Positions 9,377 to 19,841 of a DNA stretch of 21,450 nucleotides are shown in pieces (position 1 is the first letter of the stretch; the number at the start of each line of letters is the position of its first letter). This DNA is from a virus (Duplodnaviria > Heunggongvirae > Uroviricota > Caudoviricetes). The notes beneath the pieces were generated by a model. The model did no database searches and was not told the origin of the DNA. It saw only the letters and a program-made list of their open reading frames with translations. Position numbers and translations under genes: made by a program. The DNA is taken from the IMG/VR virus record IMGVR_UViG_3300029214_000123; one strand, written 5' to 3'.

Positions 9377-9649
9377 ATGCGGCTAAGCGCACGCGGAACA
9401 GTTAAAACCAAAAACAGTGTTATGGGTGGATTCTCTGTATCCGAAGAGCAGTTAATTGCGCTGAAAGGAATAAAAAAAGGTACGTTAAAAAAGGCCCGGG
9501 AAAAATCGTTTATGGAAGGAAGGGAATATAAGCATGTCGCTCATGACGGTATGCCATGGGATAACAGTCCATGCTTTTACAACCTGGAAGAAATTGATCG
9601 CTGGATTGAGCGCCAGGCATCAGCAAGACCAAGACGTCATCTTACTTGA
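9377..9649 (+). CDS. Putative excisionase (lambda Xis-like); start codon uncertain
   Basis: ORF immediately upstream of int; segment EGREYKHVAHDGMPWD resembles the lambda Xis DGREYLFHESAVKVD region. No clear SD at any candidate start (9377, 9422, 9512). K-12 has dicB at this position, and no DicB-like protein is present here. Confidence 0.45.
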   Translation: MRLSARGTVKTKNSVMGGFSVSEEQLIALKGIKKGTLKKAREKSFMEGREYKHVAHDGMPWDNSPCFYNLEEIDRWIERQASARPRRHLT

Positions 9650-9683
9650 CTAAAAGCCACACTAACTAATGAGAGAAGTTGAA

Positions 9684-10964
9684 ATGAAATATCCGACAGG
9701 CGTGGAAAACCATGGAGGGAAATTACGTATCTGGTTTGTTTATAAAGGCGTAAGAGTCAGGGAAAACCTGGGGGTTCCTGACACAGCAAAAAACAGGCGC
9801 GTTGCAGGTGAGCTACGCGCCTCTGTTTGTTACGCAATAAAAACTGGTGTTTTCGACTATGCAAAACAGTTTCCCTCCTCACGCAATCTGGAAAAATTTG
9901 GTGAGACTCGACAAGATTTAACCATAAAAGAACTGGCTGAAAAATTTCTGGCACTGAAAGAAACTGAAGTCGCAAAAACATCACTCAACACATACCGTGC
10001 CGTCATCAAAAATATCCTGAGCATAATCGGTGAAAAAAATCTTGCCTCATCGATTAATAAAGAAAAATTACTGGAGGTTCGTAAAGAGCTACTGACTGGA
10101 TACCAGATCCCCAAAAGTAACTATATTGTTACACAACCAGGGAGATCGGCTGTAACTGTAAATAATTACATGACAAATCTTAACGCCGTGTTCCAGTTTG
10201 GTGTTGATAACGGTTACCTGGCAGATAACCCGTTTAAGGGGATCTCGCCATTAAAGGAATCAAGAACCATTCCGGATCCTCTTTCGCGGGAGGAATTCAT
10301 CCGTCTTATCGATGCGTGCAGAAATCAGCAAGCCAAAAATTTATGGTGTGTTTCTGTTTATACTGGCGTTCGCCCTGGTGAGCTGTGTGCACTTGGATGG
10401 GAGGACATAGATCTGAAAAATGGAACAATGATGATCAGGAGAAATTTAGCAAAAGACCGTTTCACGGTACCAAAAACACAGGCGGGAACCAATCGGGTCA
10501 TTCATCTTATTAAGCCAGCAATCGACGCTCTCCGGAGTCAGATGACATTAACGAGACTGAGCAAAGAGCATATCATTGATGTTCACCTCAGAGAGTATGG
10601 CAGAACAGAAAAACATAAATGCACCTTTGTTTTTCAACCTGAAGTGTCAGCGAGAGTAAAAAATTATGGTGACCATTTTACCGTTGACTCAATAAGGCAG
10701 ATGTGGGACGCAGCGATAAAACGTGCCGGACTCCGCCATCGAAAATCATATCAGTCGAGACATACTTATGCCTGCTGGTCGCTGACAGCTGGTGCTAATC
10801 CGGCATTTATAGCAAACCAGATGGGCCATGCAGATGCGCAAATGGTATTTCAGGTATACGGAAAATGGATGTCTGAAAACAATAATGCACAGGTAGCTTT
10901 GTTAAATACACAGTTAAGCGAGTTTGCCCCAACCATGCCCCATAACGAAGCAATGAAAAATTAA
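9684..10964 (+). CDS. Phage integrase (tyrosine recombinase), apparently intact
   Basis: 426-aa reading from the ATG at 9684 (track ORF 9669) with a C-terminal catalytic region carrying conserved R...HxxR...Y residues (...RHTYACW..., ...VYGKWM); last prophage gene before the chromosomal rspB. Confidence 0.85.
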   Translation: MKYPTGVENHGGKLRIWFVYKGVRVRENLGVPDTAKNRRVAGELRASVCYAIKTGVFDYAKQFPSSRNLEKFGETRQDLTIKELAEKFLALKETEVAKTSLNTYRAVIKNILSIIGEKNLASSINKEKLLEVRKELLTGYQIPKSNYIVTQPGRSAVTVNNYMTNLNAVFQFGVDNGYLADNPFKGISPLKESRTIPDPLSREEFIRLIDACRNQQAKNLWCVSVYTGVRPGELCALGWEDIDLKNGTMMIRRNLAKDRFTVPKTQAGTNRVIHLIKPAIDALRSQMTLTRLSKEHIIDVHLREYGRTEKHKCTFVFQPEVSARVKNYGDHFTVDSIRQMWDAAIKRAGLRHRKSYQSRHTYACWSLTAGANPAFIANQMGHADAQMVFQVYGKWMSENNNAQVALLNTQLSEFAPTMPHNEAMKN

Positions 10965-16324: not shown

Positions 16325-17734
16325 ATGTCCAAAAATGACCGAATGGTGGGCATCAGCCGCAGAACACTCGTTAAATCAACCGCGATAGGTTCTCTGGCGC
16401 TGGCTGCAGGCGGTTTTTCTTTACCGTTCACCCTGCGCAGTGCAGCGGCAGCGGTACAACAGGCCAGCGAAAAAGTGATCTGGGGTGCCTGTTCCGTCAA
16501 CTGTGGTAGCCGCTGTGCACTTCGTCTACATGTTAAAGATAATGAAGTCACCTGGGTGGAAACTGACAACACCGGCAGCGACGAGTATGGCAATCATCAA
16601 GTACGCGCCTGTTTGCGTGGTCGATCCATCCGCCGGCGTATTAATCATCCCGATCGCTTGAATTACCCAATGAAACGCGTGGGTACACGCGGTGAAGGCA
16701 AATTCGAACGGATTAGCTGGGATGAAGCCCTGGATACTATCGCCAGTAGCCTGAAAAAAACCGTCGAACAATATGGCAATGAGGCTGTATATATTCAGTA
16801 CTCTTCGGGGATTGTTGGCGGCAATATGACCCGCTCTTCGCCATCAGCCTCGGCGGTCAAACGCCTGATGAACTGCTACGGCGGTTCACTCAATCAGTAT
16901 GGCTCCTACAGCACCGCGCAAATTTCCTGTGCCATGCCCTACACCTACGGCAGTAATGATGGCAACAGCACCACGGATATTGAAAACAGCAAGCTGGTCG
17001 TGATGTTTGGTAACAACCCGGCAGAAACCCGCATGAGCGGCGGTGGCATCACTTATCTTCTTGAAAAAGCGCGCGAGAAATCGAACGCCAAAATGATTGT
17101 TATCGATCCGCGATATACCGATACGGCTGCCGGTCGTGAAGACGAATGGCTCCCTATTCGCCCGGGCACCGATGCCGCGCTGGTTGCGGGTATTGCCTGG
17201 GTATTGATTAACGAAAATCTCGTTGATCAACCTTTTCTCGATAAATACTGCGTCGGCTATGACGAAAAAACCTTACCCGCAGATGCACCCAAAAATGGTC
17301 ACTATAAAGCCTATATTCTTGGTGAAGGTGACGATAAAACAGCGAAAACGCCGCAGTGGGCTTCGCAAATTACCGGTATCCCGGAGGACCGTATCATCAA
17401 ACTGGCGCGTGAAATTGGCACAGCAAAACCCGCTTATATCTGCCAGGGCTGGGGGCCGCAACGCCAGGCAAACGGCGAACTGACTGCACGCGCTATTGCT
17501 ATGTTACCTATTTTGACGGGCAATGTCGGCATCAGCGGCGGAAATAGTGGCGCGCGTGAATCGACCTATACCATTACCATAGAACGCCTGCCGGTGCTGG
17601 ATAATCCGGTCAAAACGTCAATCTCCTGCTTCAGCTGGACAGATGCTATCGATCATGGTCCGCAAATGACGGCAATCCGCGACGGCGTCCGCGGCAAAGA
17701 TAAACTGGATGTGCCCATTAAGTTCATCTGGAAC
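16325..17734 (+). pseudogene. ynfE: ynfE 5' fragment (Tat-exported DMSO/selenate reductase-family molybdoenzyme catalytic subunit), cut after codon ~470 by foreign DNA
   Basis: Tat signal (SRRTLVKSTAIGSLALAAG), 4Fe-4S Cys motif (CSVNCGSRCALR), YnfE/DmsA-like sequence up to ...DVPIKFIWN. The remaining ORF tail (FKDLKRTLSRPEVLH, stop at 17782) does not continue as YnfE/DmsA, and the full protein should be roughly 800 aa. Confidence 0.85.
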
Positions 17735-17790
17735 TTCAAGGACTTGAAGCGGACCCTTAGTAGGCCTGAGGTCCTGCATTGAGTCAAGGA

Positions 17791-17824
17791 CTTTGTGTCA
17801 GGCTTTGTGTCAGCCTTGTGTCAT
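17791..17824. repeat. Three tandem copies of an ~11-bp repeat (ctttgtgtcag variants) in the foreign-segment terminal region
   Basis: ctttgtgtcagg / ctttgtgtcagc / cttgtgtcat in direct tandem; followed by a tagacgg ... tagacgg direct repeat (17825-17844). Confidence 0.6.
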
Positions 17825-17976
17825 TAGACGGGATGTCTAGACGGCTGGTCAGGACCCCCGGTGGCCTCGGTCTGGACTTGAGGCGGGGCTATGGGGGGAA
17901 GTCTGCTGGCTTAATGTATTAGATGGTCATTCACATTTTTCTGTCAGAAACCATCGGTCCCACTGTGAGTCCAAAC

Positions 17977-18132
17977 CTAAGGACCTAGAAGTCCACCCAC
18001 AGCCTTAGACAGAGTGTCGAACACATCCACACCGAGTCGACCAGAGAGGACCATATAGAGACCCACAGAGAGGAACACGAGTTTATAGACCAGAGTCAGG
18101 AGGGACCTTAGGTCTGCGGAAGTCATAGACAT
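17977..18132 (-). CDS. Small (51 aa) membrane protein, holin-like or phage small membrane protein; missed by the ORF track (<60 aa)
   Basis: Hand translation MSMTSADLRSLLTLVYKLVFLSVGLYMVLSGRLGVDVFDTLSKAVGGLLGP; strong SD GAAGGAGG 5 nt upstream of the ATG at 18132; one predicted TM helix; same strand as the neighbouring phage-like genes. Confidence 0.55.
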   Translation of the reverse strand: MSMTSADLRSLLTLVYKLVFLSVGLYMVLSGRLGVDVFDTLSKAVGGLLGP

Positions 18133-18276
18133 TGGGTCCTCCTTCGCCTGTATACTACCATACCAGTAATAAGGCCCAGACCATTGGTCCAGACCATAGT
18201 TAGTTAATCACAGTGATAGCCCACCACCTGAAGTCCTGCTGATATTCAGTCCAGACTTACCTCTTACCCATTGGTC

Positions 18277-19266
18277 TTACGCTTCGGTCTTGGTGAACTT
18301 CAGGCGTTTGACTACAGGCAGGACGGCAGTAGCTGAGCCAGTGCCCATCTTGACGGTCGTAGCAGCTTCAGCGACAACGAACACTTTACCGAGGATTTCC
18401 AGAGAGTGAGACTGAGAGTCACCATCACGGGACAGGACCACCGTAATGTTTTCGCCATCGTGGCGGAAGCAACCGAAGCTCAGAGCCGTAAAACGCTTAG
18501 CCATCATGAACACGCCACGGTCTTCACCGTTGTAATACGCAATATCAGTCCCCAGCATATCGACGATAGCGTCTTCACCACCGAAGCCCTGCTTAGCAGC
18601 CAGACGGGAGAGAGCCTTGAGGTGTGACTCATGGGCGATGATACCGTAATCAGTAACCTCAGAACCGAAAGAAGATTCGGTGTTGTCATACAGAGCGTCC
18701 ATGATAGTGTCTGCCTTAGCGGTCAGGCTGCCAGTCAGGACCGGAAGCTCTACGGTCTTCAACAGTTTGGAGGACTCCAGAACGTCAACCATGCGAGCGT
18801 TGATGGTACGGACCACATTCTCACAGATGTTCATAGCGTCCTGCTGAAGTGTGCCCTGAGTGAATCCGGTGGATGACTTGGCGTCCCAGAGCTTGGTCTG
18901 CTCAGAGATGAGAATAGCCTGCTCGATTGGTTCGACCACGATTTCTTGTCCAGACGGAACGGTCACGACTTCAGGTCGCTTACCACCACGGACAGGAACG
19001 ACCACAGAGCGATCAGCCAGAGTGTGAGCAATGATTGGAGTAGGCAGGCTATTGCGGGTCGGCAGGACTTCTACAGGGAACGGGATGTTATCTTGAGCGT
19101 CTTTAAGTACACCGTTCAGCATAGCCTTAACAGTCTTAGCTAACTGGAGGGCATAGACCTGAGGGTCGGCGTTAGTCGGAAGGCCCTCATTAACCTGAAG
19201 GTTGTCGTTGTCGGTGATATGAACAGGCTCAATGCCAAACTGGAAAGCGTTTTTAGTCATATTCAT
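18277..19266 (-). CDS. Phage-like abundant structural protein, tentatively a major capsid protein (329 aa)
   Basis: Long ORF with strongly biased high-expression codon usage (CTG, GGT, CGT, GCT, ATC, GAC). Translation initiation region CAAGGAGATTAATTATA-ATG resembles the T7 gene 10 RBS (AAGGAGATATACAT-ATG). 9-bp hairpin immediately upstream. Few Cys, Ala/Val/Thr/Gly-rich. The capsid assignment is inference, not a recognised homolog. Confidence 0.45.
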   Translation of the reverse strand: MNMTKNAFQFGIEPVHITDNDNLQVNEGLPTNADPQVYALQLAKTVKAMLNGVLKDAQDNIPFPVEVLPTRNSLPTPIIAHTLADRSVVVPVRGGKRPEVVTVPSGQEIVVEPIEQAILISEQTKLWDAKSSTGFTQGTLQQDAMNICENVVRTINARMVDVLESSKLLKTVELPVLTGSLTAKADTIMDALYDNTESSFGSEVTDYGIIAHESHLKALSRLAAKQGFGGEDAIVDMLGTDIAYYNGEDRGVFMMAKRFTALSFGCFRHDGENITVVLSRDGDSQSHSLEILGKVFVVAEAATTVKMGTGSATAVLPVVKRLKFTKTEA

Positions 19267-19349: not shown

Positions 19350-19841
19350 TTACAGGCTGTCCATCCAGTTACCGCCTGACTCAATGTCAGCGACGATAGC
19401 GGCACGGGAGCGACCAGCGGAATGGGTAGCACTGCGGAGGTTCTCACCATAGGTCCGGCGTTCAGCTTTGACCTGTTCGCGGCGCTGTAGCTCTTTCTGC
19501 CACTCTGCATCAGTCATGTTCTCTTCACGCATACGCTCAGCCTGAATGCGCTGCTCTTTAGCAATACGCTCAGCTTCGGCTCGCTTGTTCTGCTGGCGGC
19601 GACCATAGGCGGTCATCAGGTCATTACTGAAGAAGTTGCCAATGGTCACGCCAGCTTCAGCCAGAGCTTCCAGTAACTCCATCGCCTCGCGGCTGGTGGA
19701 CGGTAAGCCTGACAGGTAGCCCGGAATCAGGGTCTTAATCGCCAGAGACAGCGGATAGGACTGACCGTCCAGACTCACAGTATTTTCATAGGGATTGATG
19801 TCGGTGACTGATAGTTTCCAGTCGTTGTTGTTGAATAACAT
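19350..19841 (-). CDS. Phage-like protein (163 aa) with a charged coiled-coil C-terminal half, scaffolding-like
   Basis: ORF with SD AGGAGTACTACCTT-ATG; C-terminal half RRQQNKRAEAERIAKEQRIQAERMREENMTDAEWQKELQRREQVKAERR is Arg/Glu/Gln-rich helical; immediately precedes the capsid-like gene. The scaffold role is inference. Confidence 0.4.
   Translation of the reverse strand: MLFNNNDWKLSVTDINPYENTVSLDGQSYPLSLAIKTLIPGYLSGLPSTSREAMELLEALAEAGVTIGNFFSNDLMTAYGRRQQNKRAEAERIAKEQRIQAERMREENMTDAEWQKELQRREQVKAERRTYGENLRSATHSAGRSRAAIVADIESGGNWMDSL

What the first reader, a model, noticed from the sequence alone, without database searches (positions are those of the whole stretch)
17977..18150. Unlisted 51-aa membrane protein gene with a near-consensus Shine-Dalgarno
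Translating the minus strand by hand gives a 51-aa protein with one hydrophobic helix, preceded by GAAGGAGG at ideal spacing. It lies between the capsid-like gene and the repeat-rich terminus. Small membrane proteins of this size in phage late regions are often holins or lysis and superinfection-exclusion factors. It was invisible in the supplied ORF track because of the 60-aa cutoff.
Basis: seen in the sequence. Interest (0 to 1): 0.65.

Follow-up and report, generated by a model that had tools for sequence, protein, structure and literature searches.

The report
Small membrane-peptide gene ending a mini-satellite
The 51-codon reading frame is a real, conserved gene for a small membrane peptide, the last gene of a 6.7-kb capsid-encoding mobile element inserted in the E. 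coli ynfE gene; its function is untested and it belongs to no known holin or toxin family.

Summary
A 51-aa ORF lies at 17977-18132 (-), with GAAGGAGG 5 nt before the ATG. AAGGAGG-N5-ATG occurs once in the window, against 0.01 expected.

ORF length alone means nothing: 49% of random 541-nt sequences carry one as long. Comparison shows it is a gene:
- It is intact in 20 of 21 copies examined, from E. coli, Shigella, Leclercia, Citrobacter and metagenomes.
- dN/dS is mostly 0.06-0.3, and variable sites fall mainly on third codon positions.
- The 60 nt upstream are scrambled, yet 13 of 15 leader variants keep a purine-rich ribosome-binding box.
- Residues 11-29 are hydrophobic enough for one membrane helix.

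The family is an orphan with no Pfam, PHROG, PADLOC or NCBIfam match. RefSeq omits the gene; GenBank lists it as "uncharacterised protein".

It is the terminal gene of a ~6.7-kb integrase element in ynfE. The 329-aa neighbour is predicted to have an HK97 capsid fold. Sibling elements carry other 26-54-aa, mostly hydrophobic ORFs in the same slot.

My best guess at function, unproven, is a membrane-perturbing lysis or killing peptide. The features that define holins were tested and not met, and no antisense antitoxin RNA was found.

The parts
17977..18132 (-). Coding sequence of the 51-aa peptide. Predicted membrane helix at about residues 11-29, with an invariant Lys17. Conserved amphipathic C-terminal segment VFDTLSKAVGGLLG.
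   Evidence: ORF list and sequence. Intact in 20 of 21 copies. dN/dS mostly 0.06-0.3. Variable sites by codon position 10/8/19. 43 database homologues of 73-100% identity. Hydropathy.
18138..18145 (-). Shine-Dalgarno sequence GAAGGAGG, 5 nt upstream of the ATG.
   Evidence: unique in the window, 0.01 expected. A purine-rich box at the same spacing is kept in 13 of 15 different leader variants although the surrounding 60 nt are scrambled.
18173..18195 (-). Intrinsic-terminator-like hairpin (10-bp stem, 3-nt loop, tail UUAUUACUGG) separating the small gene from the upstream structural genes.
   Evidence: A hairpin at the same place in relatives keeps its pairing with different arm sequences; this was read by eye from the sequences.
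17981..17994 (-). Weak hairpin (5-bp stem, then TTAGGTTTGG) overlapping the stop codon; a possible weak terminator.
18208..18271 (-). Context: remnant (MGKR*) of a 79-aa ORF resembling T7 gp7.3, destroyed in this window by a 176-bp deletion.
   Evidence: Full-length ORF in L027, L028, L034, L037 and L039. PHROG_1320 'host range and adsorption protein' E=1.8e-11 and Pfam VirionAssem_T7 E=0.006. Two-piece hits with +176 bp.
18277..19266 (-). Context: 329-aa protein with a predicted HK97 capsid fold, immediately upstream in the same orientation.
17918..17947 (-). Context: conserved box CTGACA-N18-TCTAAT downstream of the small gene, pointing out of the element. It could be a promoter or a protein-binding site.
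   Evidence: Lenient scan. Conserved in distant elements L025, L030, L033 and L036.
17725..17823 (.). Context: end of the element. The 11-bp att core CATCTGGAACT is at 17725-17735, and 3-4 tandem CTTTGTGTCA repeats (probable integrase arm sites) are at 17790-17823.
   Evidence: The core is duplicated at both ends of the element in L001. Repeats.

Best explanation
The ORF is a real, translated gene, which I put at about 0.9. It encodes a 51-aa single-pass inner-membrane peptide, about 0.75. The helix covers roughly residues 11-29 and carries an invariant Lys17. A conserved amphipathic C-terminal segment follows.

It is the last gene of a ~6.7-kb tyrosine-integrase element inserted in ynfE. That element carries an integrase, a KilA-N/antirepressor-like gene, a 163-aa coiled-coil protein and an HK97-fold capsid-like protein. 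Fuller copies also carry a protein resembling T7 gp7.3.

The small gene follows a terminator-like hairpin and has its own consensus ribosome-binding site. I infer that it is made at a lower level, or separately, from the capsid-like gene.

Proposed mechanism, inferred and not shown: when the element's structural genes are expressed, the peptide inserts into the cytoplasmic membrane and perturbs it. This would resemble a single-gene lysis protein, a minimal holin or a type I toxin. It would kill or lyse the cell, either to release particles or to abort a helper infection.

Sibling elements fill the same terminal slot with other 26-54-aa ORFs, most of them hydrophobic. This suggests the slot needs only a short membrane-active helix.

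The confidence of 0.4 given for this explanation refers to the functional claim.
For: Gene reality:
- The SD-plus-ATG pattern is unique in the window, 0.01 expected.
- The ORF is intact in 20 of 21 copies.
- Nei-Gojobori dN/dS is mostly 0.06-0.3 among 10 alleles.
- Variable sites by codon position are 10/8/19, P=0.018.
- A metagenomic relative at 78% nucleotide identity keeps the frame, differs from the window protein in length only by whole codons at the two ends, and has AAGGAGG at the same spacing.
- The upstream 60 nt have pi=0.34 against 0.07 in the ORF, yet a purine-rich box is kept.
- 43 database homologues exist; the largest clusters (121 and 85 members) are intact 51-aa proteins.

Membrane: Kyte-Doolittle mean 2.09 over residues 11-29, and an amphipathic segment at 31-48.

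Context:
- Synteny integrase ... capsid-fold gene - small ORF - att holds across E. coli, Shigella, Citrobacter, Leclercia, Buttiauxella, Pantoea, Lonsdalea and Tatumella.
- The neighbour has an HK97 fold.
- A terminator hairpin lies upstream.
- The slot is filled by 26/29-aa peptides (KD 2.4-2.8) or by 28-54-aa ORFs with strong SDs in siblings whose flanks are homologous.

Compatible with a costly product, but not proof: SD G-tract lengths vary from 4 to 8, the SD is deleted in two lineages, and occasional frameshifts or in-frame helix deletions occur.
Against: - There is no functional evidence of any kind.
- No similarity was found to any holin, Hok/Gef, Sgl or other family in Pfam, PHROGs, PADLOC or NCBIfam.
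- A profile search of 1.84 billion representative proteins finds only the tight family itself.
- No endolysin or spanin lies nearby.
- The C-terminus is not highly charged.
- The predicted SD-occluding hairpin, which would have fitted a toxic product, is no stronger than in synonymous recodings of the same peptide (fraction >= observed 0.41-0.55). It is not evidence.
- Several of the positional analogues (Pantoea, Lonsdalea, Tatumella, L042) are only weakly hydrophobic, KD 1.2-1.4 over 19 residues.
- hhalign does not show that they are homologous to the 51-aa family.
- A satellite normally relies on its helper for lysis.
Confidence: 0.4

Rival explanations
1. Moron-like conversion gene. The peptide is made from the integrated element under its own weak promoter and acts at the inner membrane to block DNA entry or development of other phages (superinfection exclusion or defence), without killing the host.
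For: It is set off by a terminator-like hairpin upstream and a weak hairpin downstream. Extended -10-like motifs (TGnTAGTAT, TGnTATGGT) lie between the hairpin and the SD. The cassette is swapped between otherwise homologous flanks in sibling elements, as morons and defence cargo are. It sits at the element's edge.
Against: No sigma-70 promoter passes the consensus scan, and the -10-like motifs are not conserved among leader classes. There is no PADLOC hit. A small hydrophobic ORF occupies the slot in nearly every lineage, which looks more like a core function than optional cargo.
Confidence: 0.2
2. Virion- or assembly-associated small protein, co-expressed with the capsid-fold and gp7.3-like proteins. 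For example, a membrane tether for particle assembly, or an ejected protein that helps DNA cross the envelope.
For: It is co-oriented with, and directly downstream of, the structural genes. The neighbouring 79-aa ORF matches the T7 gp7.3 family of small virion proteins, and the 163-aa protein weakly matches T7 gp14.
Against: A terminator-like hairpin separates it from those genes. It has no homologue in 50,697 phage genomes. The slot can hold peptides as short as 26 aa that are almost entirely membrane helix.
Confidence: 0.12
3. Type I toxin of a toxin-antitoxin (addiction) module that stabilises the element in the chromosome.
For: Size, a single hydrophobic helix, a strong SD predicted to be base-paired, and location on a mobile element all resemble Hok, TisB, Ldr, BsrG and related toxins (from my own knowledge of those families).
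Against: No antisense promoter or terminator reads into the ORF. There is no Rfam sRNA hit and no Hok/Gef or other toxin Pfam hit. SD occlusion is not above the synonymous-recoding expectation.
Confidence: 0.1
4. Not a functional protein gene. The frame stays open because the DNA is conserved as part of the attachment-site arm or another cis-acting site.
For: ORF length is not beyond chance. The 100 nt downstream, which are non-coding, are almost as conserved (pi 0.082) as the ORF (0.069). RefSeq PGAP does not call the ORF.
Against: Third-position bias and low dN/dS. The frame and the SD are kept at 78% nucleotide identity. The SD is retained next to a scrambled leader. Non-homologous small ORFs with strong SDs sit in the same slot elsewhere.
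Confidence: 0.06

Closest known systems
Single-gene lysis proteins and small prophage lysis peptides (e.g. MS2 L, phiX174 E, Qin prophage YdfD); from my own knowledge of these proteins
   Same: Very small proteins with one membrane helix, encoded by minimal capsid-encoding genomes or by prophages, with no partner endolysin.
   Different: No sequence similarity was detected. No lytic activity has been shown. The element is integrative and probably depends on a helper.
Holins (lambda S, phage 21 S68 pinholin, T7 gp17.5)
   Same: A small membrane protein encoded beside late or structural genes.
   Different: One helix rather than the usual 2-3. It is 51 aa, against roughly 60-150. There is no charged C-terminal tail, no neighbouring endolysin or spanin, no conserved dual start (the relative L017 starts GTG-Ser-Thr) and no holin family hit.
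Type I toxins (Hok/Gef, TisB, Ldr, ShoB, Zor, BsrG)
   Same: Under 60 aa, one hydrophobic helix, a strong but structurally occluded SD, carried on a mobile element.
   Different: No antisense RNA was found, there is no family hit, and there is no evidence that the occluding structure is selected.
Morons of lambdoid phages (Hendrix/Juhala definition; e.g. the HK97 gp15 membrane exclusion protein)
   Same: A short gene bracketed by hairpins, swapped between otherwise homologous flanks, at the edge of the structural region.
   Different: An independent promoter is not demonstrated. The slot is occupied in almost all lineages.
Small 'twilight-zone' HK97-fold genomes of 5-11.6 kb (bioRxiv 10.1101/2025.06.18.659913), and the 7-8-kb ynfE islands mapped by TIGER (PMC7192596: Eco892.7.ynfE, Sfl13.8.ynfE)
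   Same: This concerns the host element, not the ORF: ~7 kb, an integrase plus an HK97-fold protein, no portal, terminase or tail genes, and inactivation of ynfE on insertion.
   Different: Those papers do not describe this small ORF. Whether this element belongs to the clades they describe was not tested.

Membership tests
Holin (classes I-III, pinholin) | At least one membrane helix, usually 2-3 | tested here: inconclusive
   One hydrophobic segment only, residues 11-29, KD 2.09. That is compatible only with atypical single-helix holins.
Holin (classes I-III, pinholin) | Highly charged, hydrophilic C-terminal domain | tested here: not met
   The C-terminal 20 residues hold 2 basic and 2 acidic residues (net 0) and end in GGLLGP.
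Holin (classes I-III, pinholin) | Encoded next to an endolysin or spanin (lysis cassette) | tested here: not met
   No lysozyme, amidase or spanin family was found in any gene of the element searched, nor in the gene lists of the loci.
Holin (classes I-III, pinholin) | Match to a holin sequence family | tested here: not met
   No PHROG hit and no holin Pfam hit. The only Pfam hit is DUF6131 at 14.1 bits, against a cut-off of 25.
Type I toxin-antitoxin toxin | Hydrophobic peptide under 60 aa with one membrane helix | tested here: met
   51 aa; KD 2.09 over 19 residues.
Type I toxin-antitoxin toxin | Antisense or overlapping antitoxin small RNA | tested here: not met
   No promoter or terminator on the opposite strand reads into the ORF. 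No Rfam hit. Consensus scans can miss weak promoters.
Type I toxin-antitoxin toxin | Toxic when overexpressed | not testable with these tools
   Needs cloning under a tightly repressed promoter.
Type I toxin-antitoxin toxin | Selected mRNA structure that blocks translation | tested here: inconclusive
   The SD pairs with codons 9-12 in the minimum-free-energy fold, with pairing probability 0.56-0.87 in 13 of 13 SD-bearing variants. This is no stronger than in synonymous recodings.
Moron | Own promoter and terminator; present in some relatives and not in others, between conserved flanks | tested here: inconclusive
   Upstream hairpin and weak downstream hairpin. Only extended -10-like motifs. 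The cassette differs between homologous flanks, but the slot is rarely empty.
Pfam DUF6131 | Score above the gathering threshold | tested here: not met
   14.1 bits against 25; E=0.058.
HK97-fold capsid protein (the 329-aa neighbour) | HK97 fold | tested here: met

The most novel reading that the evidence does not exclude
The peptide is the dedicated lysis or killing effector of a previously uncharacterised class of ~6-7-kb capsid-encoding integrative satellites of Enterobacterales. These may parasitise T7-like phages, given the gp7.3-like gene. The 'terminal small hydrophobic peptide' slot would then be a conserved functional module filled by interchangeable 26-54-aa membrane peptides.
Probability: 0.2. 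Interest if true: 0.65.

Novelty: new member of a known kind. Interest (0 to 1): 0.38.

Why it matters
By itself this is one more small membrane-peptide gene that RefSeq annotation misses. It is useful for small-protein catalogues but not surprising.

The host element gives it more weight. That element is a 6.7-kb integrase element that inactivates ynfE in about 3% of complete E. coli genomes (171 of 5426). It encodes an HK97-fold protein with no sequence-family hit, and nearly all lineages end with a short hydrophobic ORF.

If that peptide controls lysis, killing or exclusion, it would be a very small, testable effector. It would also give a handle on how minimal capsid-encoding elements complete their cycle.

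Tried and rejected
1. The SD-sequestering hairpin as evidence of a toxic product. It is predicted robustly, but a synonymous-recoding control shows it is the expected by-product of a purine-rich SD next to Leu/Ser codons. I rejected it as evidence.
2. ORF length as evidence. It is not significant.
3. Homology between the 51-aa family and the 26-aa and 28-48-aa peptides in the same slot. hhalign probability is about 1%, so I treat them only as positional analogues.
4. Known families. Pfam, PHROGs, PADLOC and NCBIfam found nothing for the 51-aa protein, and Rfam found nothing.
5. Distant relatives. A profile search over 1.84 billion representative proteins returned only the tight family and two low-complexity false positives.
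6. Phage homologues. tblastn of the 51-, 329-, 163- and 79-aa proteins against 50,697 phage genomes found nothing.
7. The first AF2 model of the 329-aa protein, built on a shallow alignment, was unusable (pLDDT 35). A deeper alignment was needed.
8. A 14-nt inverted repeat between codons 6-10 and the stop region, reminiscent of hok fold-back. It does not appear conserved among alleles on inspection, so I dropped it.
9. A conserved dual start (Met1-Ser2-Met3). L016 and L017 lack Met3.
10. IMG/VR hits. I assumed from the contig names that these are prophage predictions in isolate genomes. If so, they say nothing about packaging.

Full report
**1. The observation**

The minus strand of 17977-18132 holds an ATG-initiated 51-codon ORF, MSMTSADLRSLLTLVYKLVFLSVGLYMVLSGRLGVDVFDTLSKAVGGLLGP. 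GAAGGAGG lies at 18138-18145, 5 nt before the ATG. The pattern AAGGAGG-N5-ATG occurs only here in the window, against 0.01 expected from shuffles.

ORF length alone means nothing. 49% of random 541-nt sequences of the same composition hold an ATG ORF of at least 51 aa.

Residues 11-29 (LLTLVYKLVFLSVGLYMVL) have a Kyte-Doolittle mean of 2.09. An unweighted Hessa sum of +0.66 kcal/mol is borderline, because of Lys17. Residues 31-48 are strongly amphipathic.

**2. Where it sits**

The window is E. coli or Shigella chromosome. The DMSO/selenate-reductase gene ynfE is cut by an integrated element.

In the complete relative L001, the 11-bp core CATCTGGAACT is duplicated at both ends. In the window it lies at 17725-17735. 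Without an IS66 insertion the element is ~6.7 kb.

All the element's annotated genes in L001 run in one direction, from the integrase end: integrase, two unknown proteins, a KilA-N/antirepressor-like protein, a 163-aa coiled-coil protein, a 329-aa protein, then the small ORF, then ~240 bp of att arm. The arm holds 3-4 tandem CTTTGTGTCA repeats.

The TIGER study had already mapped 7-8-kb islands in ynfE (Eco892.7.ynfE, Sfl13.8.ynfE) as a case of gene inactivation (PMC7192596).

**3. Is the ORF a gene?**

171 of 5426 complete E. coli genomes carry this region, at 80-98% identity. I examined 21 copies from E. coli, Shigella, Leclercia, Citrobacter and metagenomes.

- The ORF is intact in 20. L008 has a +1 G frameshift near the C-terminus.
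- Nei-Gojobori dN/dS among 10 alleles is mostly 0.06-0.3.
- Over 12 alleles, variable sites fall 10/8/19 on codon positions 1/2/3 (P=0.018).
- A metagenomic relative (L016) at 78% nucleotide identity keeps the frame. It differs from the window protein in length only by whole codons at the two ends, has 16 of 31 differences at third positions, and has AAGGAGG at the same spacing.
- The 60 nt upstream are replaced or full of indels (pi 0.34 against 0.07 in the ORF). Even so, 13 of 15 leader variants keep a purine-rich box 4-6 nt before the start.
- Gene callers have produced 43 protein clusters at 73-100% identity. The largest, with 121 and 85 members, are intact 51-mers.
- The identical protein is in GenBank as 'Uncharacterised protein', on 443 contigs. 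RefSeq PGAP never calls it.

I conclude it is a real gene under purifying selection.

One caveat: the non-coding 100 nt downstream are nearly as conserved (pi 0.082). Conservation level alone is therefore not the argument. The codon pattern and the ribosome-binding site are.

**4. Family**

The family is an orphan. Pfam, PHROGs, PADLOC and NCBIfam give no significant hit; DUF6131 scores 14 bits against a cut-off of 25. A profile search of 1.84 billion representative proteins returns only the same tight family, plus one slightly more divergent 51-mer. Nothing is found in 50,697 phage genomes.

Invariant positions include K17, the LSVGLYM core and FDTLS.

**5. Local anatomy**

A terminator-like hairpin (10-bp stem, 18195-18173) lies between the upstream genes and the SD. 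A weak 5-bp hairpin overlaps the stop codon.

The same hairpin position in relatives keeps its pairing with different arm sequences, such as GGUCAGAC/GUCUGGCC in L030. I read this by eye from the sequences.

No consensus sigma-70 promoter is found. Only extended -10-like motifs lie between the hairpin and the SD, and they are not conserved among leader classes. Expression could come from a weak promoter of its own or from read-through. This is unresolved.

**6. A lead that failed**

The SD is complementary to codons 9-12 (GGUCCCUCCU). The pairing is in the minimum-free-energy fold, with probability 0.56-0.87 in all 13 SD-bearing variants, and also in the 26-aa analogue. That looked like the translational lock of a toxic gene.

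Synonymous recodings of the same peptide occlude the SD about as well (fraction >= observed 0.41-0.55 for the window). Shuffle z-scores are modest. The hairpin may still damp translation, but it is not evidence of selection.

**7. The slot is conserved; the peptide is not**

The slot is occupied as follows:

| Elements | Loci | ORF in the slot | SD |
|---|---|---|---|
| Siblings with a 92-93% identical capsid-fold gene, several at other att sites | L029-L033, L035, L038 | 26 aa, MDLHKVYLVVFLLKLGLVVWLWAIRR | strong |
| Sibling with an 81% identical capsid-fold gene | L040 | 29-aa version of the same peptide | strong |
| Pantoea, Lonsdalea, Tatumella | L021, L023, L025 | 28-40 aa | SD-like; strong in two |
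| Pseudescherichia | L036 | 48 aa | none clear |
| A GC-rich relative | L042 | 54 aa | present |

In the 26-aa siblings the flanks are homologous to the window's.

The 26/29-aa peptides are very hydrophobic (KD 2.4-2.8). Some of the others are only moderately so, at 1.2-1.4. hhalign gives no support for homology among the types.

**8. Function**

Nothing computed here shows function. I commit to a membrane-perturbing lysis or killing peptide made with the element's structural genes, at about 0.4. The reasons are:
- the size and the single helix;
- the terminal position after the capsid-fold gene, behind an attenuating hairpin;
- the interchangeability with other short hydrophobic peptides;
- signs of down-tuning in some lineages: SD G-tracts of 4-8, the SD deleted in L013 and L028, and occasional frameshifts or helix deletions.

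The holin criteria (charged tail, endolysin neighbour, family hit) are not met. The type I toxin criterion of an antisense RNA is not met.

The rivals are an exclusion moron (0.2), a virion or assembly protein (0.12), an addiction toxin (0.1) and a non-functional ORF (0.06).

**9. Verdict**

The ORF is a new orphan member of the familiar class of small membrane peptides encoded by mobile elements. Interest is moderate.

The more unusual object is the host element: a ~6.7-kb integrase element with an HK97-fold gene and a gp7.3-like gene, and no portal or terminase. It falls in the size class of the 'twilight' HK97 genomes described in bioRxiv 10.1101/2025.06.18.659913.

Noticed in passing
window 18277-19266 (-): The 329-aa protein has no sequence-family hit but a predicted HK97 capsid/encapsulin fold. 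Its family is restricted to Enterobacterales and is annotated everywhere as 'hypothetical'. The element shows no recognisable portal, terminase or tail gene.
   Followed up: partly
window 18208-18271 (-); full-length copy at L027:8996-9235: A 79-aa Gly/Pro-rich ORF downstream of the capsid-fold gene matches PHROG_1320 'host range and adsorption protein' (E=1.8e-11) and, weakly, Pfam VirionAssem_T7 (gp7.3). In the window a 176-bp deletion reduces it to MGKR*. Together with a weak T7_gp14 hit of the 163-aa protein (19350-19841), this hints at a T7-like helper phage.
   Followed up: partly
window 17918-17947 (-), with a second copy at 17823-17852 (-): A box CTGACA-N18-TCTAAT points out of the element and is conserved in distant relatives (L025, L030, L033, L036). 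After excision and circularisation it would face the integrase gene across attP. It could be a promoter or a recombinase/IHF-type binding site.
   Followed up: no
window 16325-17782 (+) and 17725-17735: ynfE is truncated by the insertion, and the reading frame runs 16 codons into element DNA. The att core is CATCTGGAACT. The same site is listed by TIGER (PMC7192596) as a gene whose integrity an integrative element controls.
   Followed up: partly
leader of the small ORF: window 18133-18172 and loci L005-L013, L027, L028, L034: The ribosome-binding region is highly polymorphic. G-tracts run from 4 to 8 G, there are three unrelated leader sequence classes, and a short deletion removes the SD altogether in L013 and L028 while the ORF stays intact.
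   Followed up: partly
L027 and L032 (both Shigella flexneri SFBU1023, CP182556.1): One genome carries two related elements at different sites. One has the 51-aa ORF and the other has the 26-aa ORF.
   Followed up: no
L028:9232-9390 and L037 (same position): Some relatives have an extra 52-aa ORF (VIKTSIQPVEGGRYQATIWMTRR...) inserted between the gp7.3-like ORF and the small membrane ORF. It has no family hit.
   Followed up: no
L017:4216-4524 (-): A more divergent ynfE-integrated element encodes a 102-aa ORF with several hydrophobic stretches, so probably a multi-pass membrane protein, on the opposite strand in the middle of the element. It is absent from the E. coli version.
   Followed up: no
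window ~9377-10964 (+): By synteny with L001, the window upstream of rspB carries the excisionase and integrase end of a lambdoid (Qin/Rac-like) prophage. The 431-aa integrase ORF is uninterrupted here but split by IS66 in L001. That prophage in L001 also encodes DicB and the small lysis protein YdfD.
   Followed up: no
L001, L002, L007, L008, L012, L013: Many copies of the ynfE element are hit by insertion sequences (IS66, IS21, IS3 family) inside or next to the capsid-fold gene. A large share of copies are therefore probably defective.
   Followed up: no
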